64,000 bases of DNA. Source: a virus. The notes under the pieces are model-generated. The model saw nothing but the letters and a program-made list of their open reading frames with translations, was not told where the DNA came from and made no database searches. Position 1 is the stretch's first letter; each line of letters starts with the position of its first letter. Positions 17,930 through 44,076 of the stretch are shown piece after piece. The stretch lies in the IMG/VR virus record IMGVR_UViG_3300030104_006433, positions 96,545 through 160,544 of that record. One strand, written 5' to 3'. The position numbers and the translations under genes are program-made.

Positions 17930-19192
17930 ATGTTTTGGCTAGTAGAAAATAGTGAACAATTCTGGAATTTACACCAGAATGAAGAATATCATAAGGAGGC
18001 TTATATAGAAGTTATTCCCTACTCATACAAAACTCATCCAACAATTACTAAAGTATCTCTTGTATACTTACGTCCTTTAAATGCAAGTAAAGGATACATG
18101 ATATCAATAAACCATAGTGAATCTATGCCGTTAAACAACGAGTATATTGTAAATTTAATTAATAATTATGATATATTGCATGTTTGGGGAAAAAAAGAGT
18201 TTTTGCATTATTTTACGTGTAGAAATGTAAATGACATTTCTTTACTTTGTCCTGAATATGAAATGGAAACTACCAAAGCCCATCAAATTTTACAACAAAG
18301 AACTAAAAATAAGTTGGATATTAACAGAATTATTCCTATCGTTAAACATTATGAGACGTGTGAAAAAAATTATAATAATTTAAAACAATATTTTAATGAA
18401 CCAAACAACACATTTTACAACAACAGAGTACCATTGGTATTCAATGCCATTGAAAGGAATGGAATACAAGTGGATAGAGAACTCTTCAAAGAATATTTCA
18501 ACCAAGATTGGGGAGATAAAGTCTATACACAATATAATTACAGAACAACAACAACAAGACCCTCAAATAGATTTGGAGGAATAAATTTTGCTGCGTTAAA
18601 TAAAGAAAATGGAATACGTAAAACATTTATACCAAAAAATGATAAACTTGTTGAAATCGACATTTCAGCTTATCATCCTACTCTTGCTAGCTCCCTTATT
18701 GATTATAGCTTTGATGATAGAGATATTCATGCCTCATTTGCAAAAATGTATGGGGTGGATTACAAAAAATCTAAAGAATTAACATTTAAACAACTATATG
18801 GTGGGGTATTTGATCAATATAAACATTTAGAATTTTTTCAAAAGATACAAAATTTTATTGACAACTTATGGGATGATTTTCAAACTAAAGGATTTATTGA
18901 ATGTCCTATTTCAAAATATAAATTTGAAAAATCTAAGTTAGATAACATGAATCCACAAAAATTATTCAATTATCTATTACAGAATTTGGAGACAGCTAAA
19001 AATGTTCATATATTATGGGACATAATTAAAATATTAAAAAACAAAGATACAAAATTAGTATTATACACTTATGATGCTTTTCTACTAGATTTTAAACTCA
19101 CAGAAAGAACCACATTAGAACGCATATTAGATGTATTTAAAAAATATAAATTAAAAACAAAAATTACACATGGAACCAGTTATGACTTTTGA
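17930..19192 (+). CDS. Divergent, short family-A DNA polymerase-like protein
   Basis: TTTRPS, motif A EIDISAYHP, motif B KELTFKQLYGG, motif C LYTYDAFL; only 420 aa. Confidence 0.75.
   Translation: MFWLVENSEQFWNLHQNEEYHKEAYIEVIPYSYKTHPTITKVSLVYLRPLNASKGYMISINHSESMPLNNEYIVNLINNYDILHVWGKKEFLHYFTCRNVNDISLLCPEYEMETTKAHQILQQRTKNKLDINRIIPIVKHYETCEKNYNNLKQYFNEPNNTFYNNRVPLVFNAIERNGIQVDRELFKEYFNQDWGDKVYTQYNYRTTTTRPSNRFGGINFAALNKENGIRKTFIPKNDKLVEIDISAYHPTLASSLIDYSFDDRDIHASFAKMYGVDYKKSKELTFKQLYGGVFDQYKHLEFFQKIQNFIDNLWDDFQTKGFIECPISKYKFEKSKLDNMNPQKLFNYLLQNLETAKNVHILWDIIKILKNKDTKLVLYTYDAFLLDFKLTERTTLERILDVFKKYKLKTKITHGTSYDF
18609..18782 (+). CDS. Candidate nested +1-frame small membrane protein inside the polA-like gene
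   Basis: MEYVKHLYQKMINLLKSTFQLIILLLLAPLLIIALMIEIFMPHLQKCMGWITKNLKN; host frame uses CTT/ATC/GTT instead of NTA codons. Confidence 0.35.
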   Translation: MEYVKHLYQKMINLLKSTFQLIILLLLAPLLIIALMIEIFMPHLQKCMGWITKNLKN

Positions 19193-19643
19193 ACAAACAT
19201 TTGATATTTATACCATAGAATATGACAATGATAAATTTATAAATTTAAGTGACTTGAATAACAAATTATTTTGCACCTTTGTAAAATCAGAAGAGATTGA
19301 TTCCAAAGTTAAAGAACTCTCCACTACCTATAATATAATGTACAACAAAATGTTTGTACTTTATATTAAAAATAATGATGAGTATGTAATAACTTATAAT
19401 GTGGATCAAGGTAATGTTAGTGAAATACCTGATAATACTATTTTAGTGCATAGAAAAAAAGAAACAAATACCTTATACACTATTAATGCTTTAAATGAAT
19501 TAATTAAAAAGCTTAATGGTGGTGTTGTTGACACTAAGTTTCCAATTAATTGGCAACATTATAGAAATTGTGTTTTACTGACTCAACATGGAGATTTAAA
19601 ACAGTTAAATACAAAGATTCACGATATAATTGACCTCTCATAG
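19170..19643 (+). CDS. Hypothetical replication-region protein
   Basis: NKLFCTF, TYN, HRKKETNTLYTINALN; overlaps the polA-like stop. Confidence 0.65.
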   Translation: MEPVMTFEQTFDIYTIEYDNDKFINLSDLNNKLFCTFVKSEEIDSKVKELSTTYNIMYNKMFVLYIKNNDEYVITYNVDQGNVSEIPDNTILVHRKKETNTLYTINALNELIKKLNGGVVDTKFPINWQHYRNCVLLTQHGDLKQLNTKIHDIIDLS

Positions 19644-19650
19644 GCCATAG

Positions 19651-19682
19651 TTTGGCTATCAGTCAAACCTTTATTATATTTA
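19651..19682 (+). promoter_or_regulatory. Bacteroidota-type promoter
   Basis: TTTG 19651, N20, TATATTTA 19675. Confidence 0.75.
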
Positions 19683-19710
19683 AGTATTATTATTTAAAAA
19701 GTTATAAAAC

Positions 19711-20556
19711 ATGGATTTAAACGCGATTAAAAGTCGTTTGTCATCTTTAAATCAGGATGCCAAACCAAGAACAGGTGAGAAAAAAGATTATACATTAGTC
19801 TATTGGAAGCCAAGACAAGAAGGGAAATATCAAATCAGATTTGTACCTTCTTTAATAAATAAAAATAACCCATTTCAAGAAGTTTATATGCATTATGGAG
19901 TTGGAAAATATCCAATAGTAGCATTAACAAACTGGGGTGAACAAGATCCAGTAGTGGATTTTACTAAAAAATTAAGAACAACAAGTGATTCTGAAAATTG
20001 GAGATTAGCTAAGAAATTAGATCCAAAATTGAGAGTATTTGCACCTGTTATTGTTAGAGGTGAAGAAGATAAAGGAGTTAGATTATTTGAATTTAGCAAA
20101 ACTATCTATATGGAATTACTATCAATTGCAGACGATGAGGATTATGGTGATTTTACAGATGTAGCAGAAGGTTTTGACTTTGTTGTTAATGCCTCTAAGG
20201 TAGTTGATAGACCAGGATTTGCTCTTAGTTTAAGACCAAAACCAAAACAAACACCATTAAGTAAAGATGCTTCACAAGTAACAACATGGTTAGAAAATCA
20301 ACCAAAATTGTTAGAAGAAAGATACAAATACACTTATGAGAAATTAAAAGAAGAATTACAAAACTTTATTTCTGGAGGTGAAGAAAAAGAAGATACAATA
20401 GTATCAGAACCAGCATCTGAATTTGATAATGACAATGTAGAAACTAAAGCTGAAGATAAATCTAAAAAAGCATTTAGTTTAGCAACACAAGGTAAACCTA
20501 AAAAAGCAAAATCAGAAGAATTTGATTCACTTTTTGAGGATGATTTACCATTTTAA
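19711..20556 (+). CDS. Single-stranded DNA-binding protein (T4 gp32-like)
   Basis: WKP..G...IRFVP; VIVRGEEDKGVRL; acidic tail ending FEDDLPF. Confidence 0.85.
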   Translation: MDLNAIKSRLSSLNQDAKPRTGEKKDYTLVYWKPRQEGKYQIRFVPSLINKNNPFQEVYMHYGVGKYPIVALTNWGEQDPVVDFTKKLRTTSDSENWRLAKKLDPKLRVFAPVIVRGEEDKGVRLFEFSKTIYMELLSIADDEDYGDFTDVAEGFDFVVNASKVVDRPGFALSLRPKPKQTPLSKDASQVTTWLENQPKLLEERYKYTYEKLKEELQNFISGGEEKEDTIVSEPASEFDNDNVETKAEDKSKKAFSLATQGKPKKAKSEEFDSLFEDDLPF

Positions 20557-20567
20557 ATTAAAATTAT

Positions 20568-21644
20568 ATGCCAAGAGTTAAAAAATCGTTACAGGAAGCA
20601 GTCTCTGCTGAAATAAAATCCAAATTTGATTTAAGTTCCTTCAAAGAAAAGAAGGGACTTAAACAAAATGTTAAATTTAAAGATCAATCATGGATTCCTC
20701 TTTCACAAGCATTTCAAGATGTAACATCAATTCCAGGCATTCCTATGGGTCATATAGTTTTACTTAGAGGCCACTCAGATACAGGTAAAACAACAGCATT
20801 ATTAGAAGCAGCAGTTTCAGCTCAAAAGAGAGGAATACTGCCTGTTTTTATTATTACTGAAATGAAATGGAACTGGGAACATGCTAAACAAATGGGATTA
20901 GATGTTAAAGAAGTAGTAGATGAAGAAACTGGAGAAATCGTAAATTATGAAGGTGAATTCATTTATACTGATAGAGAAACTATTAATTCAATTGAAGATG
21001 TAGCTGGATTTATTTTAGATCTAATAGATGAACAAAAGAAAGGTAACTTACCTTATGATTTATTATTCCTATGGGATAGTATAGGATCAGTACCTTGTGA
21101 AATGTCTATCAAATCAAATAAAAACAATAATGAATGGAATGCTGGTGCAATGTCTACTCAATTTGGAAATAATGTTAATCAGAGAATTACATTATCAAGA
21201 AAAGAATCATCGCCATTTACTAATACATTAGTTTGTATTAATAAAGTATGGACAGCAAAAGCAGAATCACCAATGGGTAAACCTAAATTAATGAATAAAG
21301 GTGGATTTGCTATGTGGTTTGATTCTACATTTGTAGTTACATTTGGTAATATTTCAAATGCTGGAACATCTAAAATTAAAGCAATTAAAGATGGTAAACA
21401 AGTAGAATTTGCTAAACGTGTTAATTTACAGATTGATAAAAATCACATTAATGGGGTCACTACAAGAGGTAGAATAGTTATGACACCTCATGGGTTTATT
21501 AATGATAATGATAAAGAATTAAAAAACTATAAAGATGAAAATGGTAAAGCTTGGAAAGATATTTTAGGTGGAACTGATTTTCAAATAGTTGAAGAGGAGC
21601 AAGATTATAATGATGTAACTTCTTATATAGAAGAACCACAATAA
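20568..21644 (+). CDS. RecA/UvsX-like recombinase
   Basis: GIPMG.I..L.GHSDTGKTT Walker A; WDSIGS; GG.A..F. Confidence 0.85.
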   Translation: MPRVKKSLQEAVSAEIKSKFDLSSFKEKKGLKQNVKFKDQSWIPLSQAFQDVTSIPGIPMGHIVLLRGHSDTGKTTALLEAAVSAQKRGILPVFIITEMKWNWEHAKQMGLDVKEVVDEETGEIVNYEGEFIYTDRETINSIEDVAGFILDLIDEQKKGNLPYDLLFLWDSIGSVPCEMSIKSNKNNNEWNAGAMSTQFGNNVNQRITLSRKESSPFTNTLVCINKVWTAKAESPMGKPKLMNKGGFAMWFDSTFVVTFGNISNAGTSKIKAIKDGKQVEFAKRVNLQIDKNHINGVTTRGRIVMTPHGFINDNDKELKNYKDENGKAWKDILGGTDFQIVEEEQDYNDVTSYIEEPQ

Positions 21645-32835: not shown

Positions 32836-33609
32836 ATGTTAAAAAGAATAAAGGATTACAATAAAGTACTCCCTGTATTAGAATTATATAGGTGTGTACA
32901 ATCAGAAGGGTCAAGATTTGGAAGGCCCACAATAGCAGTAAGAACAACAGGATGTACACATAGATGCTACTTTGGAGAAGGTGGATGGTGTGATTCTTGG
33001 TATACAAGTATTCATCCTGAAAAAGGCACATTTACATTTAATGATATTATCAAAATATATGATGATAATCCTCATGTGAATGAAATGATGCTAACAGGTG
33101 GGTCACCTACTATGCATCCAGCTTTAGTTAATGAATTAACACATTTTGCAAATGAAAGAGATATTCTTATTACAATCGAAACTGAAGGTTCTCATTTTCT
33201 TGAAACTGACCACCCCTTGGATCTTATTAGTCTTAGCCCTAAGTTTTCTAATTCAGTTCCTATGCCCGGGACTACCACTCCTAATGGTGCGTTGGTTGAT
33301 GAAAGGATGGTCAAAGTCCACAACCGACTTAGATTAAATAAAGATGCTATTAGAAAAACACTAGATTATCATAAAGATTATCATTTCAAACCAGTATGGG
33401 ATGGTACAGATGAAAATTTAGAAGAAATAGAAGCTTTTAGAATTGAAATGGAAATTCCAAAATATAAAACTTTTATGATGCCAGCTGGAGATACTAGAGA
33501 AACATTAATTAAAATGTACCCTAAGGTATTTAGATTATGTGAGGAAAAAGGATACAATATGACTGGTAGGGATCATATAATAGCATTTGATACAGAACGA
33601 GGAGTATGA
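32836..33609 (+). CDS. queE: 7-carboxy-7-deazaguanine synthase (radical SAM)
   Basis: QSEG..G.P..VRT.GC..RC...WCDS, LTGG.P, IETEG, LSPK. Confidence 0.92.
   Translation: MLKRIKDYNKVLPVLELYRCVQSEGSRFGRPTIAVRTTGCTHRCYFGEGGWCDSWYTSIHPEKGTFTFNDIIKIYDDNPHVNEMMLTGGSPTMHPALVNELTHFANERDILITIETEGSHFLETDHPLDLISLSPKFSNSVPMPGTTTPNGALVDERMVKVHNRLRLNKDAIRKTLDYHKDYHFKPVWDGTDENLEEIEAFRIEMEIPKYKTFMMPAGDTRETLIKMYPKVFRLCEEKGYNMTGRDHIIAFDTERGV
33152..33337 (+). CDS. Candidate nested +1-frame membrane protein inside queE
   Basis: MKEIFLLQSKLKVLIFLKLTTPWILLVLALSFLIQFLCPGLPLLMVRWLMKGWSKSTTDLD; coincides with a codon-shifted patch. Confidence 0.4.
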   Translation: MKEIFLLQSKLKVLIFLKLTTPWILLVLALSFLIQFLCPGLPLLMVRWLMKGWSKSTTDLD

Positions 33610-33805: not shown

Positions 33806-34249
33806 ATGAATAAACATTATGTAGATTGGAGTGAAATAAATGCTTTAGTTTTTAGGCTATGTCATAGAATAAAAACATCAGAACTAAAATTTAAAAACAT
33901 ATATGGATTACCAAGAGGAGGATTAATACCTGCTGTTATGTTATCTCATAGATTAGAAATTCCTTTAGTTAAAGGTGATATAGGCCCTGATACTTTAATT
34001 GTAGATGACATATGTGATAGTGGAGAAACATTAGATAAGTTTATAATAAAATATCAAACTTTATATTCATTTCCATTTAATCTTAAAACAGCGGTTTTAC
34101 ATTACAAACCTCATACTTCATGTTTTGAACCTACTTTTAATGCTAAAAAATGGGATAAAGATGATTGGTTAGTATATCCTTGGGAAACAGAAAACTCAGA
34201 ACCTATACAAGATTATAAAGTAAAGATTGGCCAAGTTGAAAATTATTAA
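33806..34249 (+). CDS. Purine phosphoribosyltransferase (type I PRTase)
   Basis: GLPRGGLIPA, LIVDDICDSGETL PRPP motif, WLVYPWE. Confidence 0.9.
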   Translation: MNKHYVDWSEINALVFRLCHRIKTSELKFKNIYGLPRGGLIPAVMLSHRLEIPLVKGDIGPDTLIVDDICDSGETLDKFIIKYQTLYSFPFNLKTAVLHYKPHTSCFEPTFNAKKWDKDDWLVYPWETENSEPIQDYKVKIGQVENY

Positions 34250-34274
34250 TATATTTAAATAAAATTAAAACAAT

Positions 34275-35315
34275 ATGAGTGTAAAAAGTACAATAAAAAC
34301 AAAATTTGTTAAAAAATATGAATGGGTAGGAGATGTAGACTCTTATGTAGAACCAGATTCAAATGAACATTCAGAAAAATACAATGAACCAAATAGGGAT
34401 TATGATTCAAAGTATAAACCAACTAAGGATGACATCAAAACATTCCCTGATTTACAGAATGGCCCTTCATCATTAATACAGGGTTCTCCTGTAGAAATAC
34501 AACAAGTAGGGATTCATAATTTTAGATTACCTTTAAGATATAAAACAAGAGATAATGGTGATATAGAATTAGAAACTAAAGTAACAGGAACTGTATCACT
34601 TGAAGCACATAAAAAAGGAATAAATATGTCTCGTATTATGAGATCATTTTATGAATTTAAAAATGATACTTTTAGTATAGATAAATTAGAAACAGTTTTA
34701 TCTGCTTATCAAGATAAATTAAAATCATTTGATTCTAAAATAGCACTCAAATTCTCATATCCTATAATTCAAAAATCACTAAGATCAGATAATGAGGGAT
34801 ATCAATATTATGATGTTACTTTAGAGGGTGATTTAAATAAACAAGGTGAATTAAGAAAAATAATTCATTTTGATTTTGTATATTCATCAGCTTGTCCATG
34901 TTCTTATGAATTAGCTGAATTTGCTAGGAAATATAGAAACAAAGCAACAGTATCCCATTCACAAAGATCAGTAACTAGAGTATCAATTGAATTTGATGAA
35001 ATGGTTTGGATAGAAGAATTACAAGAAATGTGTGCTAAAGCATTACAAACAGAAACACAAGTAGTTGTTAAAAGAGAAGATGAAATGGCATTTGCTGAAT
35101 TAAATGGATCATATTTAAAATTTGTTGAAGACGCAGCTAGATTGTTATATGAACAATTAATTGAAGATAAAAGAATTAAAGATTTTAGAGTAATATGTTC
35201 ACATCAAGAATCATTACATTCACATGATGCTGTATCAGTTATATTAGCTCCAAATAGTAAATTTTGTGGAGATGTACCTCATGAATTATGGTCAAGTTTA
35301 ATACATATTTCTTGA
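34275..35315 (+). CDS. folE2: GTP cyclohydrolase IB
   Basis: PDLQ, IQQVGI, KGINMSR, SACPCS, HSQRS, KREDE, FVEDAAR, ESLHSHDA. Confidence 0.92.
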   Translation: MSVKSTIKTKFVKKYEWVGDVDSYVEPDSNEHSEKYNEPNRDYDSKYKPTKDDIKTFPDLQNGPSSLIQGSPVEIQQVGIHNFRLPLRYKTRDNGDIELETKVTGTVSLEAHKKGINMSRIMRSFYEFKNDTFSIDKLETVLSAYQDKLKSFDSKIALKFSYPIIQKSLRSDNEGYQYYDVTLEGDLNKQGELRKIIHFDFVYSSACPCSYELAEFARKYRNKATVSHSQRSVTRVSIEFDEMVWIEELQEMCAKALQTETQVVVKREDEMAFAELNGSYLKFVEDAARLLYEQLIEDKRIKDFRVICSHQESLHSHDAVSVILAPNSKFCGDVPHELWSSLIHIS

Positions 35316-35443
35316 AACCTATAAAAAAAATAAAGGCTACAATGAAAGAAATTTATGATGCGATGCGTCCAAATGTTTATCGTAACCGAAAAAAATACAC
35401 AAGAAAAAATAAACATAAAAATAAAAGTTATGACAAAAGTTAA
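35312..35443 (+). CDS. Small basic hypothetical protein
   Basis: (L)KPIKKIKATMKEIYDAMRPNVYRNRKKYTRKNKHK...; fills the gap and overlaps both neighbours. Confidence 0.45.
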   Translation: MKPIKKIKATMKEIYDAMRPNVYRNRKKYTRKNKHKNKSYDKS

Positions 35444-36125
35444 AAAAAGAACATTAAATGAGTATAGACAAGTAAAAGATGCTTCTTATACCCCACCAAA
35501 AAAAGGACAAAAATTTGAAATACCAAAATTTGATCCCCAAACAGGAGAACTAAATCCTTATTATTTAGAATTAACAGGAAAAGATAGTTTCAATCAATTA
35601 GAAATACCTTTTGAATTCCAAACTGATAATGTAGACTTTGTAAATGAAGTAGAAGAATTTAATAGAACTTTTGGTAAACCGAATAATTATAAACCAACAA
35701 TACCAGCCAAAAAAGAATGGCAATTTGTATATGATTTTATACTCGAAGAACTTGAAGAATATAAAGAAGCATGCGAGCGAGGTGACATCGTGGAAGTTTT
35801 GGATGCTTTGTGTGATATTACTTACGTTTCCCTTGGGAACGGTGTTATGTTACATGGCCTTAAGGATAAGATTTGGCCCGCGTATCAAGAAGTACAAGAT
35901 TCAAATATGTCAAAATCTTGTAAAACTAAAGAAGAAGCAATCAAAACTGTCTATAAAAGAAGTGAGGAACAAGGTGAGGAATGTCATTTTGAAAAAGTAG
36001 GAGATAGATATGTTGTTTATAGAACAAGAGATAGAAAAGTAATGAAATCAATAAATTACTTTAGACCTGATTTACATCAATTTTTCACACCAGAAGAAAC
36101 TGAAGGAGCAATTAAGAATGTATAA
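35430..36125 (+). CDS. MazG-like / PRA-PH-type nucleotide pyrophosphohydrolase
   Basis: EELEEY...EVLDALCD..YV and SNMSK; start likely 35430 rather than 35355. Confidence 0.8.
   Translation: MTKVKKRTLNEYRQVKDASYTPPKKGQKFEIPKFDPQTGELNPYYLELTGKDSFNQLEIPFEFQTDNVDFVNEVEEFNRTFGKPNNYKPTIPAKKEWQFVYDFILEELEEYKEACERGDIVEVLDALCDITYVSLGNGVMLHGLKDKIWPAYQEVQDSNMSKSCKTKEEAIKTVYKRSEEQGEECHFEKVGDRYVVYRTRDRKVMKSINYFRPDLHQFFTPEETEGAIKNV
35731..36000 (+). CDS. Candidate nested +1-frame single-TM protein inside the MazG-like gene
   Basis: MILYSKNLKNIKKHASEVTSWKFWMLCVILLTFPLGTVLCYMALRIRFGPRIKKYK...; +1 frame open for more than 110 codons. Confidence 0.45.
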   Translation: MILYSKNLKNIKKHASEVTSWKFWMLCVILLTFPLGTVLCYMALRIRFGPRIKKYKIQICQNLVKLKKKQSKLSIKEVRNKVRNVILKK

Positions 36126-37911
36126 AAAATGTTATGCTAAAAAAATAAAGGGTAGTCTAAATCAATTTGAAATAGATTTGTGGACAGACTCAGGACATGA
36201 AAAATTAGAATGGACTAATTATGCTTATAAAGAATGTCATGAAGCAGATGCTACCCATATAGGTTTAAATGGTCACCCCTTGATAAAAACTCAAAAATGG
36301 AAAAGAGGTGATGATAAAATCCACTTCAATGATATGAAACCTTATCAGAAGTTCCTGATAGAAAAATATGGAACAAATGATGAGGTTTCTACAACTCACA
36401 ATGAAATGTTTTTTGATATTGAAACTGAAATGGGGGATGCCTTAACAGTTGAATATATAGAATCTGCGCCTAAGAAAGTAACATCTATTGCTTGGTATGA
36501 TAAAAGGGTTGACCAATGGGGAATACTAATTTTAGACCCTAAAAAACAATTAGAACATACTAAAGCTAGAAATAAAGAAATAACACCAGTACTTACAGAA
36601 CATGATTTACTAATGAAATTTTTAGGTAAATTAGAAGAAATTGAACCTGATATTTTAGTAGGATATAATAGTGATTATTTTGATATACCTTATCTATATT
36701 ACAGAATGTGTAATGTATTAGGCCCAGAATTAGCTAGAAGAATATCACCTTTAGGTAGAGTAAAATGTAGAAAAGGAAATGAATATTGGTTTAAAAAAGA
36801 TACATTTGTGACTATTGAAGGAATTGAATCTTTGGATTATATTAGAATGCATAGAAAATATAGTTGGGCAGATGAACCAAGTTGGAAATTAGATGCTATT
36901 GGAGAAAAATATGCTGGTGTAAATAAAATTGAATATGAGGGCTCATTAGATAGATTATTTGAAACTGATATTCATAAATTTATAGAGTATAACTTTATGG
37001 ATGTTAAAATCTTAGTTGAACTAGATAAAAAATTAGAATACTTAGCCCTAACAAAAAATCTATCCCATAAAGGTAAACATAATTATAGTGAAGTATATGC
37101 TAATACTAACACACAAGATGGCGCAATTTCAGCTTACTTATTAGGTAAAGGAATTATACCACCAAACAAAGATCCACATATCAATTACAAAGATAGTTAT
37201 GCTGGTGGTTATTTATTTTGTCCTAAAGCAGGAATCTATAATTATATGTTTGATGAGGATTTAACATCACTATATCCTTCAATTATCATGTCTTTAAACA
37301 TAGGTAAAGAAACATTAATGGCTCGTATAATAGATGCTGATGATAGAAATAATAGATTAGGATTAAATGATTTGATTCAAAAAGATCCAAATGAAACCGT
37401 TCTTATAAGAAATAATAAAGATCAAAGAGCTGAATTAACAATAGGTCAATTGCTAAAATTTATTAAAGAAAAAAGATGGACAATATCAGCAAATGGTACA
37501 ATGTATGCTACAAATAGACAATCAGTTTTATCTACAATTTTAGCTAAATGGTTTAATGAAAGAGTAAAATATAAAAAAGCTAAGAAGAAAGCAGCTAAAG
37601 CTAAGGATAAAGATTTAGAGGCTTCATTTCATATGAAACAATATACAATGAAAATTTTGCTAAATAGTTTATATGGTGCCACAGCTTTAAGTAGTTTTAG
37701 ATATGGTAATAGAGTATTATCAAAATCAATCACATTAGCAGGACAAAGAATTATTCAAGAAAGCGCTTTATGTGCTAATAGACATATGAATAAAGTTATA
37801 AAAGGTGAAATTGAATTAAATTTAAATCAAAAATCAAAACCAAATAAAAAAGAAAGAACTAACGATCCTAAAATTGAAAGAAATATAAGCCCAAGACCTT
37901 ATGGAATTTAA
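36118..37911 (+). CDS. Family-B DNA polymerase, N-terminal part (3'-5' exonuclease, motifs A and B)
   Basis: FFDIET, GYNSDYFDIPY, YNFMDV, DLTSLYPSII, KILLNSLYG; no DTDS. Confidence 0.92.
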   Translation: MYKKCYAKKIKGSLNQFEIDLWTDSGHEKLEWTNYAYKECHEADATHIGLNGHPLIKTQKWKRGDDKIHFNDMKPYQKFLIEKYGTNDEVSTTHNEMFFDIETEMGDALTVEYIESAPKKVTSIAWYDKRVDQWGILILDPKKQLEHTKARNKEITPVLTEHDLLMKFLGKLEEIEPDILVGYNSDYFDIPYLYYRMCNVLGPELARRISPLGRVKCRKGNEYWFKKDTFVTIEGIESLDYIRMHRKYSWADEPSWKLDAIGEKYAGVNKIEYEGSLDRLFETDIHKFIEYNFMDVKILVELDKKLEYLALTKNLSHKGKHNYSEVYANTNTQDGAISAYLLGKGIIPPNKDPHINYKDSYAGGYLFCPKAGIYNYMFDEDLTSLYPSIIMSLNIGKETLMARIIDADDRNNRLGLNDLIQKDPNETVLIRNNKDQRAELTIGQLLKFIKEKRWTISANGTMYATNRQSVLSTILAKWFNERVKYKKAKKKAAKAKDKDLEASFHMKQYTMKILLNSLYGATALSSFRYGNRVLSKSITLAGQRIIQESALCANRHMNKVIKGEIELNLNQKSKPNKKERTNDPKIERNISPRPYGI

Positions 37912-37922
37912 AACTAAAATAT

Positions 37923-38183
37923 ATGCTGAGTAAACAATCAATTAGAAAAGAACATACCATTTATTTAAATAATGTTCAAATGACTAAAGAAGAAATTATT
38001 GAAATATCAAAAGATTTTAATGAGAAAGAAGAGTTACATTTTAGAAAGATGTTAAAGCAGGGTGGAACACTTAAAATCAAAGAATTAGTGTTTGATATTA
38101 AAAGATATGAATATAAACAAAGGAATAGCAAAGGTGAATTTGATGAACCAGCTAGACCACACAGACCAGAAGATTGGGAATGA
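37923..38183 (+). CDS. Hypothetical protein between the polymerase halves
   Basis: MLSKQSIRK...FRKMLKQGG; 86 aa. Confidence 0.65.
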   Translation: MLSKQSIRKEHTIYLNNVQMTKEEIIEISKDFNEKEELHFRKMLKQGGTLKIKELVFDIKRYEYKQRNSKGEFDEPARPHRPEDWE

Positions 38184-39139
38184 AACATTTAGAAGACACA
38201 CCATGGTGGATTTGCGATCCTGAAGACGAAAATTATTGTGCTTATGTAGATACAGATAGTAATTATTTTCACGCTGAACCTGTACTTAGACATTTATATC
38301 CTAATTTAGATGAAATGTCTGATCAAGAAAAAGACAATAAATTAGAAGAAATAGCTTTAGCTTATCAAGATATTATAACAGACCATTATGATATTTTAGC
38401 TAAGGAGACATTTAACGTTCATAAATTTCCTTGGTTTAAAGATAGAGAAAAAGACCATTGGTTAGAAATGAAAACTGAATGTATAATAAGATCAGGTTAT
38501 TTTAGAGCCACTAGAAGATATGCTCAATGGATTACTAAACAAGAGGGTGTTGAGAAAGAAACACTTGATATTAAAGGACTAGAATTTAAAAAAGCTAATT
38601 TTCCTCCTATATTAGGTAAATTTTTTAAAAGTGCTTTAATTGATGTTCTAAAAGGAACACAACAAGAAGAAATTGACCAAAGAGTAAAAGCATTTAAAAA
38701 AGAAATATTAGAAGGTAAAATACCTTTAACACAATTGGGTAACCCAACATCAGTAAAAACATTAAACAAATACACAGAAAGAAAAGCTAGGGCTGGAGAA
38801 ATGTTTTCTGTGATAGCTAAAGGAGCACCTGCTTCTGTTAAAGCAACAATAGCCTATAATGATTTAATTAGGTTTTGGAATTTAAGTGGAAAGCACAGTT
38901 ATATAGCACAAGGTGATAAGGTTAAATGGATTTATTTAAAACCAAACACCTACCAAATTGAGGCCCTAGCTTTTTTAGAATTTGATTTACCTAAAAAAAT
39001 AAAAGATTTTTTAGAAGAATATGCTGATAGAAAAAAAGTATTTGAAAGTATATTATTAAATAAATTAGAAGGATTCTATTCAGATTTAGGATGGAATTTA
39101 AATTTAAACCCTTATATTAATAAGTTTTTTGAATTATGA
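38174..39139 (+). CDS. Family-B DNA polymerase, C-terminal part (motif C and thumb)
   Basis: YVDTDS, RRYA, IKGLEF; start may be 38180. Confidence 0.9.
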   Translation: MGMKHLEDTPWWICDPEDENYCAYVDTDSNYFHAEPVLRHLYPNLDEMSDQEKDNKLEEIALAYQDIITDHYDILAKETFNVHKFPWFKDREKDHWLEMKTECIIRSGYFRATRRYAQWITKQEGVEKETLDIKGLEFKKANFPPILGKFFKSALIDVLKGTQQEEIDQRVKAFKKEILEGKIPLTQLGNPTSVKTLNKYTERKARAGEMFSVIAKGAPASVKATIAYNDLIRFWNLSGKHSYIAQGDKVKWIYLKPNTYQIEALAFLEFDLPKKIKDFLEEYADRKKVFESILLNKLEGFYSDLGWNLNLNPYINKFFEL

Positions 39140-39873
39140 TAAATAAAAATATATTACAAAATGTTATCTCTAAATATTATTTAGGTGAGATAGAAAGAGT
39201 AAAATGGGAAATTGAAGATAACCAATTAACAGTTAATTTTATAACTCCAAGCAGAATGGTGTTAGGTAGTGTGAAATGTAATGATTTTCCATTAGAAAAC
39301 GCTGATTTAGCTATATATCATACTAAAAAATTATCAAACCTTATTTCAATATGTAACGGAGATTTACTATTAGAGTTAGAAAAACAAAAGGAAATGTTAT
39401 TAAAACTTAATATATCTGATTCTAACTTTAATTTATCTTATGCATTATCAGATCCATTATTAATTAAAAGTACAGGTAAAGCAAAACCAGTAGAAGGTTG
39501 GGACATTGAATTAGAAATGACAAGAAATGAAATAGGTAACATATTAAAAGCTAAAAGCGCTTTATCTGAAATTGATAATATGTTAGTTACATCTACAAAA
39601 GATTTAGATGGAGAAGATGTTTGTGAGTTTGTGTTTGGAGATGAAGCAGGACATAATAATAAAATAACTTACCAATTGAAAGGTAAAATAGACAAAGAAA
39701 ATATTAAAATTAGATACAACTCAGATATGTTAAAAACAATATTAAATGCTAATAAAGATGTAGATGATGGAGTATTTAAAATATCCAAAGAAGGATTAAT
39801 GCATTTATCATTTAAAAATGATGAAATTGAAAGTGAATATTACATGGTTCCACAAGAAGATGGAGTTTTGTAA
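39136..39873 (+). CDS. Sliding clamp (gp45/PCNA-like)
   Basis: 245 aa two-domain beta-rich pattern ending GLMHL.F....SEYYMV; follows the polymerase. Confidence 0.7.
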   Translation: MINKNILQNVISKYYLGEIERVKWEIEDNQLTVNFITPSRMVLGSVKCNDFPLENADLAIYHTKKLSNLISICNGDLLLELEKQKEMLLKLNISDSNFNLSYALSDPLLIKSTGKAKPVEGWDIELEMTRNEIGNILKAKSALSEIDNMLVTSTKDLDGEDVCEFVFGDEAGHNNKITYQLKGKIDKENIKIRYNSDMLKTILNANKDVDDGVFKISKEGLMHLSFKNDEIESEYYMVPQEDGVL

Positions 39874-39898
39874 ATAGAAAATTTTTTATATATATTTA
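39867..39898 (+). promoter_or_regulatory. Bacteroidota-type promoter for hsp20
   Basis: TTTG 39867, N20, TATATTTA 39891. Confidence 0.6.
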
Positions 39899-39903
39899 TT
39901 AAT

Positions 39904-40443
39904 GCAAAACTTAGGATGCAAAACCGGCTCACCAAAATGGGAGCTATTTTATTAACAAAACATAAATTTAAGAATTATGACTTATCTAAGAGAAATAGAA
40001 CAAGGCCTAGCGCCAAGAATAACATCACCTTTTGACATACTTGTTAGAAATTTCTTCAACACCGAAGAACCTTTTCACCCTTTACAATCAATTAAACTTA
40101 AACATCCAGTTGATGTTTATGAAGATAATGATGGTCTTCATTTGGAAGTAGCTTGTACTGGGTTGACTAAAGAAGATGTAAACCTTGATATCGAGGGAGA
40201 CATTTTAAAAGTTAGCTATACAAAACCTGAAAATGAGGATATTAATAGAGAATATCACTACTCAGGTATAGCTAAAAGATCATTCAATTTTGGTTACAAA
40301 GTAGCTAATAAATTTAGATTATCTGAAGCTGAAGCTAAAATGGAGAATGGATTATTAACAGTTACAGTTCCATATTCTCCTCATGTAGTAACAAAACCAC
40401 TATCAATAAAAATTAAGTAAGAAAATCGCATCCTAGGTTTTGC
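39904..40443. repeat. 16-bp inverted repeat bracketing hsp20
   Basis: GCAAAACTTAGGATGC (39904-39919) and GCATCCTAGGTTTTGC (40428-40443); the one mismatch is a G-U pair. Confidence 0.85.
39977..40420 (+). CDS. Small heat shock protein (Hsp20/alpha-crystallin)
   Basis: PVDVYE, G..KEDV.L...GD.L.V, GIAKRSF, A.MENGLLTVTVP. Confidence 0.93.
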   Translation: MTYLREIEQGLAPRITSPFDILVRNFFNTEEPFHPLQSIKLKHPVDVYEDNDGLHLEVACTGLTKEDVNLDIEGDILKVSYTKPENEDINREYHYSGIAKRSFNFGYKVANKFRLSEAEAKMENGLLTVTVPYSPHVVTKPLSIKIK

Positions 40444-40492
40444 TTATTAAGATATTTTTATTATATTCATTTAAACATTATAAAACAACGTT

Positions 40493-40870
40493 ATGACAGA
40501 ATTAGAAGCATTATTTGATGCAGTTATAGTTAAACCTCAAGAAGAAGAGGAAACTCAATATGGCTCAATAGTAGTACCTGATCTAGGTAAAGATAGAAAT
40601 GAACATGGCACAGTAGTAGCTGTGGGGCCTGGAAGACATGTAGGTGGAGTAGGTTTTGTAGAAACTGAAATTAAAATAGGAGACAATGTTATTTTACCTA
40701 CCATAGGATTCACTAAATTAGAACACAAAGGAGAAGAATATTATATTGGCCAAGAAAATCAAATCTTAGCCAGAGTTAAAAAAGAGGTTAATGTTGAAGA
40801 TATTTTAGCAGAAACAGAAGTTACACCAGAAGAAATAAAAGAAATAAAAGAAAGATTAGAAAATGAGTAA
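40493..40870 (+). CDS. groES: Co-chaperonin GroES with acidic C-terminal extension
   Basis: LFDAVIVK, GSIVVPD, GTVVAVGPG, KIGD.V, ILA. Confidence 0.9.
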   Translation: MTELEALFDAVIVKPQEEEETQYGSIVVPDLGKDRNEHGTVVAVGPGRHVGGVGFVETEIKIGDNVILPTIGFTKLEHKGEEYYIGQENQILARVKKEVNVEDILAETEVTPEEIKEIKERLENE

Positions 40871-42491
40871 AATTATAGAATTTGGCCCTGAAGCCAGAAA
40901 AAAACTAGTAAAAGGAATAGACCAAATAGCGGATGCTGTAGTATCTACATTAGGTCCAAATGGTAGAAATGTTATTATTTCAAAACAAAATGAAACTCCA
41001 CAATCAACAAAAGATGGAGTAACAGTAGCTAAAAATATATCATTAGAAGATCCAACTGAAGAATTAGGTGTTCAAATGCTTAAACAAGCAGCTATTAAAA
41101 CAGCTGATAATGCAGGAGATGGTACAACTACTTCTACTTTATTAGCTAGAGAAATAGTTAAAGAAGGTTTAAGTGCTTTAGATAAAAAAGCTAATGCTGT
41201 TGATATTAAAAGAGGAATAGATGCCGCTGTAAAGCAAGTTGTAAAACAATTAAGAACAATTAATGAAGATATTTCATCACCAGAACAATTAGAACAAGTA
41301 GCTACAATTTCAGCTAACAATGATGAAAAAGTAGGAAAACTTATTTCTAGAGCTATGGAAAAAGTAGGCAGAGAAGGTGTTGTTCATATTGAAGAATCTA
41401 AAACCGGAGAAACATATCTTGAAACAGTTGAAGGGATGCAATTCAATAGAGGATTTAAATCACCTTATTTTGTTACAAATAATAATAATATGACATCTAC
41501 TTTAAATGATTGTTATGTTTTAATTGCTGATCATACTTTTACACAAGTAAAAGAATTACTACCAATATTAGAAAGTGTATCAAATACAAATAAATCACTT
41601 TTAATCATTGCTAAAGATATAGATAATGAAGCATTAGCTACTCTTATAGTAAATAAAATGAGAGGTACATTAAAAGTATGTGCTGTTAAAGCTCCTGAAT
41701 TTGGAGATAGACAAAAATTAGTTTTAGATGATATAGCTGTATTAACTGGGGGTCAAGTATTTTCTAAAGAAAAAGGAATGAAACTTGAAAAATTTAGTTG
41801 GGAATGGTTTGGTGAAGCTAGAGTTGCTACAATCACTAAAGAAAAAACAACTATTGTAGATGGTAAAGGTAAAGAAGAAGATATTAATAATAGAGTAGAA
41901 GAACTATCAAACCAAATTGAACACTCAGAAACACCATTTGAAATGGAGAGTTTACAAAATAGAATGTCTAAATTTGTAGGTGGGGTAGCTATAGTTCATG
42001 TAGGTGGAAATACTGAAACTGAAATGAATGAGAAGAAAGATAGAGTTGATGATGCTTTAAATGCTACAAAAGCCGCAATTGAGGAAGGAATATTACCTGG
42101 AGGTGGAGTTGCCTTATTAGGAGCTTCATTAAAAGTAGAATGCACAGGTAACCCAGATTTTTTGTTTGGTGTTGATATTGTTAAAAAAGCATGTAAAAAA
42201 CCATTTTTTCAAATTTTATTTAATGCTGGTTTTGATTATGAAGATGCTAGAGAAATATCATTAGAAGTAGAAGATTTAGATTGGGTTGGATATGATATTA
42301 AAAATTATGAAAATGTTAACTTAAAAGATGCGGGAATTATTGATCCATTTAAAGTAACAAGAAATGCTTTAGAAAATGCAGCTTCAATAGCAGGAACAAT
42401 TCTATTAACAGAGGCAACAATAGTTGACAAACCGAAAGAAAATAATATGCCAGAAATTGATCCCGCTGCAATGATGGGAGGAATGATGTAA
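40863..42491 (+). CDS. groEL: Chaperonin GroEL
   Basis: TLGPNGRNV, TKDGVTVAK, AGDGTTT, EGMQF, GGG; GGMM tail. Confidence 0.97.
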   Translation: MSKIIEFGPEARKKLVKGIDQIADAVVSTLGPNGRNVIISKQNETPQSTKDGVTVAKNISLEDPTEELGVQMLKQAAIKTADNAGDGTTTSTLLAREIVKEGLSALDKKANAVDIKRGIDAAVKQVVKQLRTINEDISSPEQLEQVATISANNDEKVGKLISRAMEKVGREGVVHIEESKTGETYLETVEGMQFNRGFKSPYFVTNNNNMTSTLNDCYVLIADHTFTQVKELLPILESVSNTNKSLLIIAKDIDNEALATLIVNKMRGTLKVCAVKAPEFGDRQKLVLDDIAVLTGGQVFSKEKGMKLEKFSWEWFGEARVATITKEKTTIVDGKGKEEDINNRVEELSNQIEHSETPFEMESLQNRMSKFVGGVAIVHVGGNTETEMNEKKDRVDDALNATKAAIEEGILPGGGVALLGASLKVECTGNPDFLFGVDIVKKACKKPFFQILFNAGFDYEDAREISLEVEDLDWVGYDIKNYENVNLKDAGIIDPFKVTRNALENAASIAGTILLTEATIVDKPKENNMPEIDPAAMMGGMM

Positions 42492-42554
42492 TATGGTTTT
42501 AGAATTAATATTTTTAATAAGTTGTTTTATATTGACAATCCTTAAAGACGAAAT

Positions 42555-42818
42555 ATGAAAACAAAAGTTATAGAAAGAAATGAATTAATAGCTACTAGAG
42601 TACCACCTGGAGACAGATGGACTCTAGTAGATGATTCAAAAAAAGTAATTCATAAATCCTTAACAGATACTTTGGAATCCTACTTAGGGATCACTAACTT
42701 TAAAGGTGAATATAGGCTAGACCCTATTGGAAGTAAATTATACGCTATTAAAACTTCTGAGGAAGAGGTCAAACCTGAACCAATAAAAAAGTATAACATT
42801 TATGGAGATGAATATTAA
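42555..42818 (+). CDS. Hypothetical protein
   Basis: 87 aa, IATRVPPGDRW. Confidence 0.65.
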   Translation: MKTKVIERNELIATRVPPGDRWTLVDDSKKVIHKSLTDTLESYLGITNFKGEYRLDPIGSKLYAIKTSEEEVKPEPIKKYNIYGDEY

Positions 42819-43153
42819 AATTAATGAGTCCTAAATTACCTAAAAAATAATGCTTATGGAAAATTTAGATATAATTATAGGAACCCTGATTGGATCAGGT
42901 TTAACTGCTTTAGTGGCAATTTTTGTTACTAGGGTTTCAAATCGATTTAAACAGGTAAATGAAGACTTACAAAGTGTAAGTAGAGATCACTCAACTAGTT
43001 TGGATGCTGTGTATGATAGTAATTCAAGAGAAGTTGAGAATATATATAGAGAAATTGATTCTCAAATTAATAAACTAGAATCTAGATTGGTAAAACAATT
43101 TAAAGATTATAATTACAATAAATAATTAACCCAATTTAGGACTCTTAATTTTA
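42816..43153. repeat. About 21-bp inverted repeat bracketing ORF 42850-43125
   Basis: TAAAATTAA(T)GAGTCCTAAATT (42816-42837) and AATTTAGGACTCTTAATTTTA (43133-43153). Confidence 0.8.
42850..43125 (+). CDS. Single-TM coiled-coil small protein
   Basis: N-terminal hydrophobic helix followed by a coiled coil (IDSQINKLESRL). Confidence 0.65.
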   Translation: MLMENLDIIIGTLIGSGLTALVAIFVTRVSNRFKQVNEDLQSVSRDHSTSLDAVYDSNSREVENIYREIDSQINKLESRLVKQFKDYNYNK

Positions 43154-44076
43154 TGAAAGACCACACATTATTAGTAGAAAAATATCGATCTAACACTCTT
43201 GATGAATATGTAGGTAATAACCATATTAAAACCCAAATACAAAAATACTTAGACCAGGATGATATTCAAAACTTCATTTTTTATGGCCCTGCTGGTACAG
43301 GGAAAACTACTCTCGCTAAACTCATTGTTAATAATTTGGACTGCGATTACTTATACATTAACGCTTCTGATGAACGGGGTATCGAAACTATTAGGGATAA
43401 AGTCACCAACTTCTCAAGTACTGCTTCGTTTCGACAGATCAAAGTTGTCATACTCGATGAGGCAGATTTCCTCACAATTCAAGCGCAAGCATCATTAAGA
43501 AATGTAATAGAAACATTTTCTAGGAATACACGTTTTATTATGACGTGTAATTTTATAGAGAGGATAATAGATCCACTACAATCAAGATGCCAAGTACTAA
43601 AAATAGTACCCCCAAGTAAAAAAGAAGTAGCAAAACATTTAAAAGAAATATTAGATACAGAACAAACAAAATTCAAAGTTGAAGCTCTCGTTAACATAGT
43701 TAACACACATCATCCGGATATACGAAAAATGTTAAACACAATTCAGTTATCTACTAAAGATAATGAGTTAGTACTAGATGAATCAATCATAGTATCATCC
43801 AATTATATAAAACAAGTTATAACAGAATTAAAAAACCCAAAAACAGATTATCGAAAGTTAAGACAAATAATTGCTGACTCGGGAGTTAAAGATTTTGAAG
43901 AATTATATAGATCATTATTTGACCAAGCAGGAGAGTATGCTAAAGGTAGAGAGGGTAGTGTAGCTATGATTTTAAATGAACATCAATATCATTCAAATTT
44001 TAGAATTGATAAGGAAATTAATATAGCAAGTGCTTTAGCAAAAATAATAGAAACCAAAAAACCACAAGTAATATGA
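43153..44076 (+). CDS. Clamp loader large subunit (gp44/RFC-like AAA+)
   Basis: VEKYR, GPAGTGKTT, NASDERG, LDEAD, SRC. Confidence 0.95.
   Translation: MKDHTLLVEKYRSNTLDEYVGNNHIKTQIQKYLDQDDIQNFIFYGPAGTGKTTLAKLIVNNLDCDYLYINASDERGIETIRDKVTNFSSTASFRQIKVVILDEADFLTIQAQASLRNVIETFSRNTRFIMTCNFIERIIDPLQSRCQVLKIVPPSKKEVAKHLKEILDTEQTKFKVEALVNIVNTHHPDIRKMLNTIQLSTKDNELVLDESIIVSSNYIKQVITELKNPKTDYRKLRQIIADSGVKDFEELYRSLFDQAGEYAKGREGSVAMILNEHQYHSNFRIDKEINIASALAKIIETKKPQVI
43259..43498 (+). CDS. Candidate nested +1-frame protein inside the clamp loader gene
   Basis: 79 aa with hydrophobic N-half and basic C-end; matches a patch of CTC/ATC/GTC/CGG/TCG codons. Confidence 0.4.
   Translation: MIFKTSFFMALLVQGKLLSLNSLLIIWTAITYTLTLLMNGVSKLLGIKSPTSQVLLRFDRSKLSYSMRQISSQFKRKHH

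What the first reader, a model, noticed from the sequence alone, without database searches (positions are those of the whole stretch)
18231..43498. Recurrent nested +1-frame ORFs inside core genes, marked by local codon-usage switches
Seen: the window's genes mostly use TTA/ATA/GTA, which put TAA/TAG stops in the +1 frame every few codons. In discrete patches of four unrelated core genes (polA-like, queE, MazG-like, clamp loader) the main frame switches to CTT/CTC/TTG/ATC/GTC and otherwise rare CG-containing codons. There the +1 frame opens for roughly 50-115 codons, with an ATG near the patch start and a stop at the patch end. Several products have a clean hydrophobic helix and a basic flank. 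Inference: this is a hidden layer of overprinted small membrane proteins (for example exclusion, lysis timing or anti-defence factors) embedded in core genes. Caveats: any NTA-poor patch, such as a recombined segment, opens the +1 frame automatically, and +1 frames of AT-rich genes are intrinsically hydrophobic.
Basis: partly seen in the sequence, partly recalled or inferred. Interest (0 to 1): 0.85.

Follow-up and report, generated by a model that had tools for sequence, protein, structure and literature searches.

The report
Hidden +1-frame genes inside phage core genes
Four core genes of this marine Bacteroidetes-type phage each carry a stretch whose second reading frame is kept free of stop codons, also in dozens of distant relatives, so they very probably hide five small extra genes that normal annotation misses.

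Summary
The window is the last 64 kb of a 160.5 kb phage genome of about 29% GC, related to Flavobacterium phage immuto.

- clamp loader: log10P -6.9
- queE: -6.2
- MazG-like: -5.8
- polA-like: -4.0
- next best run: -3.5

In alignments of 36-71 distinct homologues from viral contigs, +1 stops fall to 0.01-0.3 of expectation only in these patches. They stay near 1 elsewhere, in the +2 frame and in two control genes. TTA/ATA/GTA are absent before A/G, where they would make a stop, but remain common before C/T. This excludes a simple donor codon-usage patch. Relatives are either stop-free or carry several stops (up to 11). A recombination tract swaps the queE allele between near-identical genomes, and the +1 ATG goes with the open frame.

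Amino-acid-level constraint is clear only for the MazG ORF. The helix-plus-basic-tail look is automatic for this frame. Translation and function are untested. One ORF (18231-18383) is not conserved.

Another first-stage note in this scan describes the same MazG nested ORF in a different genome.

Verdict: five selectively maintained overprinted ORFs, a new variant of a known kind.

The parts
17930..19192 (+). Host gene 1: 420-aa DNA-polymerase-A-like protein. The assignment is weak.
   Evidence: The only family hit is PHROG 17, DNA polymerase, at E 0.0019. Pfam, NCBIfam and PDB sequence searches found nothing. Resemblance to family A motif A/B was judged by eye only.
18396..18584 (+). polA_a: nested +1 ORF of 62 aa, polar and rich in T/S/Q/N.
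   Evidence: Open in 30/36 distinct homologues at 50-88% host identity. The ATG at alignment column 174 is present in 30/30 ORF+ against 0/5 ORF-. Observed/expected +1 stops are 0.03-0.26. The product is about 5 SD less hydrophobic than stop-free recodings. The start context is at the 99th percentile of internal ATGs.
18609..18782 (+). polA_b: nested +1 ORF of 57 aa with a hydrophobic core. It lies over the motif-A-like region of the host gene.
   Evidence: log10P(open) is -4.0 for run 18600-18779, fourth in the genome. Open in 33/36 homologues. Observed/expected stops are 0.07-0.36.
32836..33609 (+). Host gene 2: QueE (7-carboxy-7-deazaguanine synthase, radical SAM).
   Evidence: Pfam Radical_SAM and NCBIfam QueE models hit, all below their curated cut-offs. 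The immuto orthologue is annotated QueE.
33152..33337 (+). queE nested +1 ORF of 61 aa from the ATG. The open frame starts at 33140 and a TTG lies at 33146.
   Evidence: log10P is -6.2, with 7.4 stops expected. Open in 37/60 homologues; the rest have 1-7 stops. ATG in 36/37 ORF+ against 16/21 ORF-. Also present in cultured phage immuto. The allele is swapped by a recombination tract against the nearest relative L202.
35355..36125 (+). Host gene 3: MazG-like / PRA-PH nucleoside triphosphate pyrophosphohydrolase, with an N-terminal extension.
   Evidence: Pfam PF01503 at 2.3e-11. PHROG 671 at 8.5e-31. The immuto orthologue is annotated NTP pyrophosphohydrolase.
35731..36000 (+). MazG nested +1 ORF of 89 aa from the ATG. 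The open frame runs from 35653, and a TTG at 35671 would give 109 aa. It is the best-supported overlapping gene.
   Evidence: Open in 68/71 distinct homologues, with ORFs of 89-140 aa. Four-fold sites are nearly invariant over the core, holding rare codons (TCC CTT GGG AAC) that spell F-P-L-G-T in +1. Synonymous diversity is 0.20 in the core against 0.37-0.45 at the flanks. dNN/dNS is 0.53 [0.32-0.83]. It is the only megablast-level match of an 11 kb stretch to any GenBank phage.
43153..44076 (+). Host gene 4: clamp loader (RFC small subunit / gp44-like AAA+ ATPase).
   Evidence: Pfam AAA and DNA_pol3_delta2 hit. NCBIfam RFC small subunit hits at 1.1e-61. tblastn finds gp44 clamp loaders of T4-like cyanophages.
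43259..43498 (+). Clamp-loader nested +1 ORF of 79 aa, lying over the Walker A to Walker B region.
   Evidence: log10P is -6.9, with 8.8 stops expected, first in the genome. Open in 39/66 distinct homologues; the others have 2-11 stops. There are at least 22 codon changes at 13 risky columns, none to NTA, while ORF- alleles use NTA there in 149/337 cases. ATG in 38/38 ORF+ against 21/27 ORF-.
18231..18383 (+). It is not part of the phenomenon.
   Evidence: Homologues carry +1 stops throughout this segment. log10P is only -2.1.

Best explanation
Five same-strand, +1-frame ORFs are overprinted on the conserved cores of four replication and nucleotide-metabolism genes, and natural selection keeps them open. 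They are most likely translated from internal ATGs on the host genes' own mRNAs. Their products are small proteins: 57-89 aa here and 48-140 aa in relatives.

Shown:
- Selection against +1 stops is frame-specific and patch-specific across many diverged phages.
- The +1 ATG co-occurs with the open frame.
- ORF+ and ORF- alleles exist and are exchanged by homologous recombination inside the conserved host gene.
- The MazG ORF is constrained at the amino-acid level: a hydrophobic helix, a Pro-Leu-Gly break, a second helix, then a very basic tail.

Inferred:
- The ORFs are translated.
- The hydrophobic ones (polA_b, queE, MazG, clamp) act as small membrane-associated accessory proteins made while the replication genes are expressed. 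Their function would depend largely on generic composition, which would explain why mainly stop avoidance is visible.
- Their dispensability (ORF- alleles) points to a conditional role, such as phage-phage or phage-host conflict, rather than a core role.
For: (1) Genome-wide rank. The four patches are the four least probable open alternative-frame runs in 160.5 kb.

(2) Homologue alignments. Observed/expected +1 stops are 0.01-0.12 (MazG), 0.21-0.45 (clamp), 0.25-0.46 (queE) and 0.03-0.36 (polA) inside the patches. They are about 1 outside, in the +2 frame and in two control genes.

(3) Context specificity. In ORF+ alleles NTA codons before A/G number 0/639, 0/531 and 0/123. Before C/T they stay at 52%, 34% and 25%. 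Background genes show no context effect.

(4) Turnover without stops. At risky columns there are at least 15, 22, 13, 9 and 8 codon-type changes, none to the genome's favoured NTA. ORF- alleles use NTA at the same columns.

(5) Alleles. Relatives are either stop-free or carry stops: 2-11 (clamp), 1-7 (queE), 3-5 (MazG).

(6) The canonical +1 ATG is present in 38/38 ORF+ against 21/27 ORF- (clamp), 36/37 against 16/21 (queE) and 30/30 against 0/5 (polA_a). The MazG ATG codon context TAT is kept 80:2, while other Tyr columns are roughly balanced.

(7) MazG core. Four-fold sites are nearly invariant with rare codons, synonymous diversity is halved and dNN/dNS is 0.53.

(8) Composition shifts at sites irrelevant to stops. 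polA_a is more polar, and queE and polA_b are more hydrophobic, in ORF+ than in ORF- alleles.

(9) A more distant relative (L434) still has a 118-aa +1 ORF beside an intact MazG frame.
Against: - No evidence of translation is available.
- For clamp, queE and polA_b, synonymous diversity inside the patch equals that outside, and dNN/dNS matches the controls. No amino-acid-level constraint is demonstrated there.
- Hydrophobicity and basic tails are no greater than in random stop-free recodings.
- The start contexts of the MazG and clamp ATGs in the window are poor: 44th and 29th percentile of internal ATGs, and 3rd and 2nd percentile of real starts.
- The window lacks the family's canonical MazG ATG and must use a later one.
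- No stand-alone homologue and no family match exist for any product.
- The Fisher tests and sequence counts are not corrected for phylogeny.
- Many relatives do without the ORFs.
Confidence: 0.65

Rival explanations
1. The +1 frame is kept open for a translation-level purpose other than an independent small protein. One option is programmed +1 frameshifting, which would make trans-frame fusions of the enzyme's N-terminus with a +1 tail. Another is an internal ORF whose act of translation, not its peptide, matters for mRNA stability or for expression of the host gene.
For: For three or four of the ORFs only stops are avoided, while the +1 amino-acid sequence drifts freely. The MazG and clamp ATGs have poor initiation contexts. 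In MazG the open frame begins about 13 codons upstream of the conserved ATG.
Against: The ATG co-varies with the open state. No slippery or frameshift motif was identified, though none was searched for systematically. The MazG product shows residue-level constraint. Four unrelated genes would each need a frameshift site. A fusion would destroy the catalytic core of each enzyme.
Confidence: 0.15
2. The patches are recombination tracts from relatives with a different, less NTA-rich codon usage. The open +1 frame is a by-product with no function.
For: The queE patch differs from the otherwise identical nearest relative by about 50 mostly synonymous changes, so it is a clear recombination tract. 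GC3 is raised in the patches. Within-patch shuffling of the window sequence alone cannot reject composition for queE and polA (P 0.25-0.27).
Against: NTA codons persist in the same patches before C/T, at 25-52%, but are never found before A/G. Flanking GC3 is the same in ORF+ and ORF- contigs. Stop depletion holds in lineages whose synonymous sites are saturated, including polA homologues at 50-57% amino-acid identity. The +2 frame is not depleted. Within-patch shuffles reject composition for MazG (P 0.009) and nearly for the clamp loader (0.05).
Confidence: 0.08
3. Chance. Long +1 runs arise where the host protein has few Leu/Ile/Val codons followed by A/G-initial codons.
For: The total number of +1 runs of at least 50 codons is as expected: 10 against 9.4. 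Runs such as 18231-18380, 18384-18581, 47354-47554 and 49542-49730 are unremarkable once the amino-acid sequence is considered.
Against: Expected stops in the four patches are 5.1-8.8 against 0 observed, the top four in the genome. The same patches are depleted in dozens of diverged homologues, while control genes are not.
Confidence: 0.02

Closest known systems
Embedded o-spanin genes (lambda Rz1 inside Rz, T7 18.7 inside 18.5)
   Same: A small gene lies entirely nested in the +1 frame of a larger same-strand gene of a dsDNA phage, and the product is membrane-targeted (PMC6139136).
   Different: The host genes here are replication and nucleotide-metabolism enzymes, not an i-spanin in a lysis cassette. 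By eye, the one product inspected (MazG, WMLC) lacks a lipobox, and the others were not checked. There is no functional pairing between host and nested product. Five such ORFs occur in one genome. ORF+ and ORF- alleles coexist in the population.
Overprinted genes of small phages (phiX174 E in D, B in A, K; MS2 L)
   Same: These are de novo ORFs in an alternative frame of an essential gene, often encoding a short hydrophobic membrane-active protein (established knowledge; review PMC8227390).
   Different: Those occur in genomes of 4-6 kb, where coding space is limiting. Here the genome is 160 kb and has many small accessory genes. The nested ORFs here are dispensable in many relatives.
Small hydrophobic type I toxins such as IbsC, whose frameshifted variants stay membrane-toxic
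   Same: They support the idea that function can rest on generic hydrophobic and basic composition, which would leave stop avoidance as the main visible constraint (PMC7192591 abstract).
   Different: There is no antisense RNA partner and no evidence of toxicity here. This is an analogy of mechanism only.
Early small membrane proteins of T4-type phages (Imm, Sp: superinfection exclusion)
   Same: They share the size, the transmembrane character and the expected expression during the early/middle phase (my own knowledge, not tested here).
   Different: Those are free-standing genes. No sequence or profile similarity was found.

Membership tests
Overprinted (nested, same-strand +1) protein-coding gene | The alternative-frame ORF is longer than expected given the host protein sequence and codon usage. 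| tested here: met
   log10P values are -6.9, -6.2, -5.8 and -4.0, the top four in the genome. polA_a is not significant in the window alone.
Overprinted (nested, same-strand +1) protein-coding gene | The open frame is conserved in homologues whose synonymous sites have diverged. | tested here: met
   Open in 68/71, 39/66, 37/60, 30/36 and 33/36 homologues. Observed/expected stops are 0.01-0.45 inside and about 1 outside, in the +2 frame and in controls.
Overprinted (nested, same-strand +1) protein-coding gene | A conserved start codon is tied to the ORF. | tested here: met
   The ATG co-occurs with the open state: 38/38 against 21/27, 36/37 against 16/21, and 30/30 against 0/5. For MazG the ATG is at column 163 or 177 in all ORF+. 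These counts are not corrected for phylogeny.
Overprinted (nested, same-strand +1) protein-coding gene | Purifying selection acts on the alternative-frame protein (reduced host synonymous rate, dNN/dNS below 1). | tested here: inconclusive
   Met for MazG: core synonymous diversity 0.20 against 0.37-0.45, dNN/dNS 0.53, four-fold sites invariant. Weak for polA_a. Not detected for clamp, queE and polA_b.
Overprinted (nested, same-strand +1) protein-coding gene | The product is translated. | not testable with these tools
   Only metatranscriptome contigs were available. They cannot show frame or translation.
Embedded o-spanin (Rz1-like) | It is nested in an i-spanin gene of a lysis cassette and has a lipoprotein signal with a lipobox Cys. 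| tested here: not met
   The host genes are polA-like, QueE, MazG-like and clamp loader. The MazG product's WMLC motif does not fit a lipobox by eye; the other products were not checked, and no signal-peptide predictor was run.
Holin | A small protein with at least one transmembrane segment and a charged C-terminus, encoded next to an endolysin, that triggers lysis. | not tested
   The composition is compatible, but that composition is automatic for this frame. The genomic context is replication, not lysis. There is no PHROG or Pfam holin match.
Programmed +1 ribosomal frameshift product | A conserved shift site with a stimulatory element, and no need for an internal start. | not tested
   No systematic search for shift sites was made. 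The ATG conservation argues for internal initiation.

The most novel reading that the evidence does not exclude
Marine Bacteroidetes myoviruses may carry a layer of accessory genes written in the +1 frame of the most conserved catalytic cores of core genes. Because those cores are the stretches with the highest nucleotide identity between diverged phages, the hidden ORFs would spread and be lost as ORF+/ORF- alleles by homologous recombination. In effect they would be mobile accessory genes without their own locus, invisible to annotation and to gene-content comparisons. Other genes and lineages probably hold more of them.
Probability: 0.35. Interest if true: 0.85.

Novelty: new variant of a known kind. 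Interest (0 to 1): 0.74.

Why it matters
Overprinted genes are textbook for tiny phages and for spanins. Large dsDNA phages, in contrast, are annotated as if each stretch encoded one protein.

Here five nested ORFs in one 160 kb genome show population-wide selection against stop codons. They sit inside replication and DNA-modification genes that are used as conserved markers. If they are translated, three things follow:
- Phage gene counts and "core gene" evolutionary rates are biased.
- Synonymous sites in marker genes are not neutral.
- Accessory functions can move between phages by recombination inside core genes.

The ORF+/ORF- polymorphism offers a natural experiment. A cultured relative, phage immuto, carries two of the ORFs, which makes the question directly testable.

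Tried and rejected
- **Within-gene synonymous shuffle**. It flagged only MazG and the clamp loader. It is conservative because the patch's own codons are in the shuffled pool, so I replaced it with the genome-wide codon-usage test.
- **Within-patch shuffle of the window alone**. It lacks power for queE and polA (P about 0.25).
- **Family searches for the five +1 products.** Pfam and PHROGs gave no meaningful hit.
- **The search for homologous proteins and the 1.84-billion-protein profile search with the MazG +1 product**. They returned only the same nested ORF in relatives, or two-frame chimeras from contigs whose other genes are fragmented. No stand-alone homologue was found.
- **ESM Atlas**. 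Nothing usable.
- **AlphaFold2 of the MazG +1 product with 45 sequences**. The model is all-helical with a break at Pro-Leu-Gly and mean pLDDT 68.7. I ran no fold search, because short helical models give meaningless matches.
- **RNA structure as the cause of MazG core conservation**. None of 40 predicted pairs shows compensatory change. The region is too conserved to test, so there is no support.
- **Bacteroidetes -7 promoter motif TAnnTTTG**. It occurs 95 times against 114 expected. Only one site (18568-18575) lies upstream of a nested ATG, so there is no evidence for internal promoters.
- **Start-context matrix**. Results are mixed: good for polA_a, poor for MazG and clamp.
- **Hydrophobic helix and basic tail as evidence**. 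Rejected.
- **OLGenie-like dNN/dNS**. Informative only for MazG.
- **Metatranscriptome contigs**. Relatives' contigs pile up on 35665-35920. As contigs they show neither transcription level nor frame, so I did not use them as evidence.
- **Cross-contig co-occurrence of the five ORFs.** It could not be computed, because locus files carry no contig names.


Full report
**Setting.** The window is the last 64 kb of a single 160,544-bp contig. It has about 29% GC, and all genes are tightly packed on the + strand. The only GenBank phages with nucleotide-level similarity are the Flavobacterium phages vB_FspM_immuto, which carry 7-deazaguanine DNA-modification genes.

The four host genes are:
- a weakly DNA-polymerase-A-like protein, 17930-19192 (only PHROG 17, E 0.0019)
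- QueE, 32836-33609
- a MazG/PRA-PH nucleoside triphosphate pyrophosphohydrolase, 35355-36125
- an RFC/gp44-like clamp loader, 43153-44076

**The observation.** +1-frame open runs average 8.3 codons. The longest are 115 codons (35653-35997) and 81 codons (43253-43495).

A within-gene synonymous shuffle singles out only these two, both in the window and in the whole genome. The number of runs of at least 50 codons is not in excess: 10 against 9.4. That shuffle is conservative, because the odd codons of the patch belong to the shuffled pool.

I therefore computed the probability that each observed run stays open, using genome-wide codon usage conditioned on the host protein sequence.

| Patch | Run | log10P | Stops expected |
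|---|---|---|---|
| clamp loader | 43253-43495 | -6.9 | 8.8 |
| queE | 33140-33334 | -6.2 | 7.4 |
| MazG | 35653-35997 | -5.8 | 7.2 |
| polA-like | 18600-18779 | -4.0 | 5.1 |

The next best run scores -3.5. The codon switch is real. In the window's clamp-loader patch none of 14 Leu/Ile/Val codons followed by A/G makes a stop, against 33 stops at 43 such sites elsewhere in the gene. GC3 is 0.36 inside against 0.15 outside.

**Relatives.** IMG/VR holds hundreds of homologues of each gene. I built codon alignments of 36-71 distinct sequences and compared observed +1 stops with those expected from each sequence's own amino acids.

| Gene | Observed/expected +1 stops inside the patch |
|---|---|
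| MazG | 0.01-0.12 |
| clamp loader | 0.21-0.45 |
| queE | 0.25-0.46 |
| polA-like, segment a | 0.03-0.26 |
| polA-like, segment b | 0.07-0.36 |

The ratio stays near 1 in the rest of these genes, in the +2 frame and in two control genes. Those controls have long but statistically unremarkable +1 runs in the window.

The open frame covers the core in the following numbers of distinct homologues:
- MazG: 68/71
- clamp loader: 39/66
- queE: 37/60
- polA_a: 30/36
- polA_b: 33/36

The remaining homologues mostly carry several stops (up to 11), so there are ORF+ and ORF- alleles. The 50-aa ORF at 18231-18383 is not conserved.

**Not a donor codon-usage patch.** In other genes of the same loci the share of NTA codons is the same before A/G as before C/T: Leu 0.80/0.76, Ile 0.37/0.40, Val 0.53/0.54. 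Inside the patches of ORF+ alleles, NTA before A/G is 0/639 (MazG), 0/531 (clamp) and 0/123 (queE). Before C/T it remains 52%, 34% and 25%.

At the risky columns ORF+ sequences vary among CTT/CTC/TTG/CTG, ATT/ATC and GTT/GTC/GTG. There are at least 15, 22, 13, 9 and 8 codon-type changes for the five ORFs, and none goes to the genome's favoured NTA. ORF- alleles use NTA at those very columns. GC3 outside the patch is the same in ORF+ and ORF- contigs. So the raised GC3 of the patch is a consequence of stop avoidance, not its cause.

**Recombination.** The window and its nearest relative (L202) are identical or nearly so across queE. The exception is the patch, where about 50 mostly synonymous differences cluster and L202 has at least five +1 stops. 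On trees built from the flanks, the ORF state changes at least 5 times for the clamp loader and at least 12 times for queE. What recombines, however, is an allele with or without the ORF.

**Start codons.** Each ORF has an ATG just after the upstream +1 stop, and the ATG goes with the open state. These counts are not corrected for phylogeny.
- Clamp loader: 38/38 ORF+ against 21/27 ORF-.
- queE: 36/37 against 16/21.
- polA_a: 30/30 against 0/5.
- MazG: the ATG arises from TAT-GAA. That Tyr codon is TAT in 80 of 82 sequences, while other Tyr columns are mixed. The window's clade has Lys for Glu there and uses an ATG 14 codons later, at 35731.

Start-context scores are good for polA_a (99th percentile of internal ATGs), fair for polA_b and queE, and poor for MazG and clamp. 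No internal promoter motif stands out.

**Constraint on the products.** MazG is the clear case.
- Over the core, four-fold sites are almost invariant and hold rare codons. For example TCC-CTT-GGG-AAC reads F-P-L-G-T in +1.
- Synonymous diversity is 0.20 in the core against 0.37-0.45 at the flanks.
- dNN/dNS is 0.53 [0.32-0.83].
- RNA structure gets no support.
- AlphaFold2 gives helix, break at PLG, helix, then a basic helical tail (pLDDT 68.7).

For clamp, queE and polA_b neither synonymous diversity nor dNN/dNS differs from controls. Hydrophobic helices and basic tails are what random stop-free recodings of these AT-rich genes give anyway, so they are not evidence.

Some composition signals do go beyond stop avoidance. 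polA_a is about 5 SD more polar than the null. At sites irrelevant to stops, ORF+ alleles are more polar than ORF- alleles for polA_a and more hydrophobic for queE and polA_b. The clamp product is more basic than expected (P 0.003).

**Homology and function.** No family, stand-alone homologue or Atlas neighbour was found. Database hits are the same nested ORF, or two-frame chimeras from error-prone contigs. A more distant relative keeps a 118-aa +1 ORF beside an intact MazG frame. This pattern fits a de novo origin by overprinting.

Function remains inferred. The likeliest reading is small, mostly membrane-associated accessory proteins made together with the replication genes. They are dispensable in many lineages, so a conditional role is more likely than a core one.

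**Comparison with known systems.** The closest known architecture is Rz1 embedded in the +1 frame of Rz (PMC6139136). The classic overprinted genes of phiX174 and MS2 are also close. Membership in spanins is rejected, because the host genes and genomic context are wrong and the one product inspected (MazG) has no lipobox.

The new elements are:
- the hosts are catalytic cores of replication and DNA-modification enzymes in a 160 kb phage
- five such ORFs occur in one genome
- ORF+ and ORF- alleles are exchanged by recombination

**Earlier notes in this scan.** Another first-stage note (e1-5680300) independently describes the same MazG nested ORF and the same purine-context codon rule in a different genome. 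That note is an unverified lead, not support.

**Verdict.** I put the probability that these are selectively maintained coding ORFs at about 0.65 overall: about 0.85 for MazG and 0.5-0.65 for the others. The specific membrane or conflict function is a guess.

Noticed in passing
window 35355-35645: The window's MazG-like gene has an N-terminal extension of about 97 aa that immuto's 174-aa protein lacks. This N-terminal part varies strongly in length and sequence among homologues.
   Followed up: no
window 35646-36089: This is the only megablast-level match of an 11 kb stretch (34000-45000) to any GenBank phage, at 79.5% identity to immuto. It coincides with the nested ORF. Hundreds of relatives' contigs in two metatranscriptome runs pile up on 35665-35920.
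   Followed up: partly
queE alignment columns 100-140 (upstream of the patch, window about 32950-33080); clamp alignment columns 210-225; control gene 47332-48279 around column 220: These are further, weaker dips of observed/expected +1 stops (0.2-0.55) in homologue alignments. They may mark additional nested ORFs present only in some relatives.
   Followed up: no
L272 (ENA contig_20483), L433 (JGI Ga0634393_00120): Database 'proteins' P0002, P0004, P0006, P0012 and P0022 are chimeras that start in the MazG frame and continue in the +1 frame, or the reverse. In L272 the neighbouring polB is also fragmented, which points to indel errors in the assembly rather than real frameshifting.
   Followed up: partly
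window 18568-18575: A Bacteroidetes-type -7 box (TAGATTTG) lies 34 nt upstream of the polA_b ATG. The motif is no more frequent in the window than chance.
   Followed up: no
window 63794-63964 (- strand): My crude gene caller picked a 56-aa minus-strand ORF at the very end of the genome. Its +1 frame is open for 46 codons (p<1/300 in the shuffle). This probably means the real coding frame there is a different one.
   Followed up: no
loci L003 and L258 (one contig), L006 and L208 (another contig): The two contigs whose MazG nested ORF is broken (L003, L006) also have a broken queE nested ORF. This hints that whole lineages may have lost several of the hidden ORFs together. The contig pairing was read from the tables, and the ORF states.
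   Followed up: no
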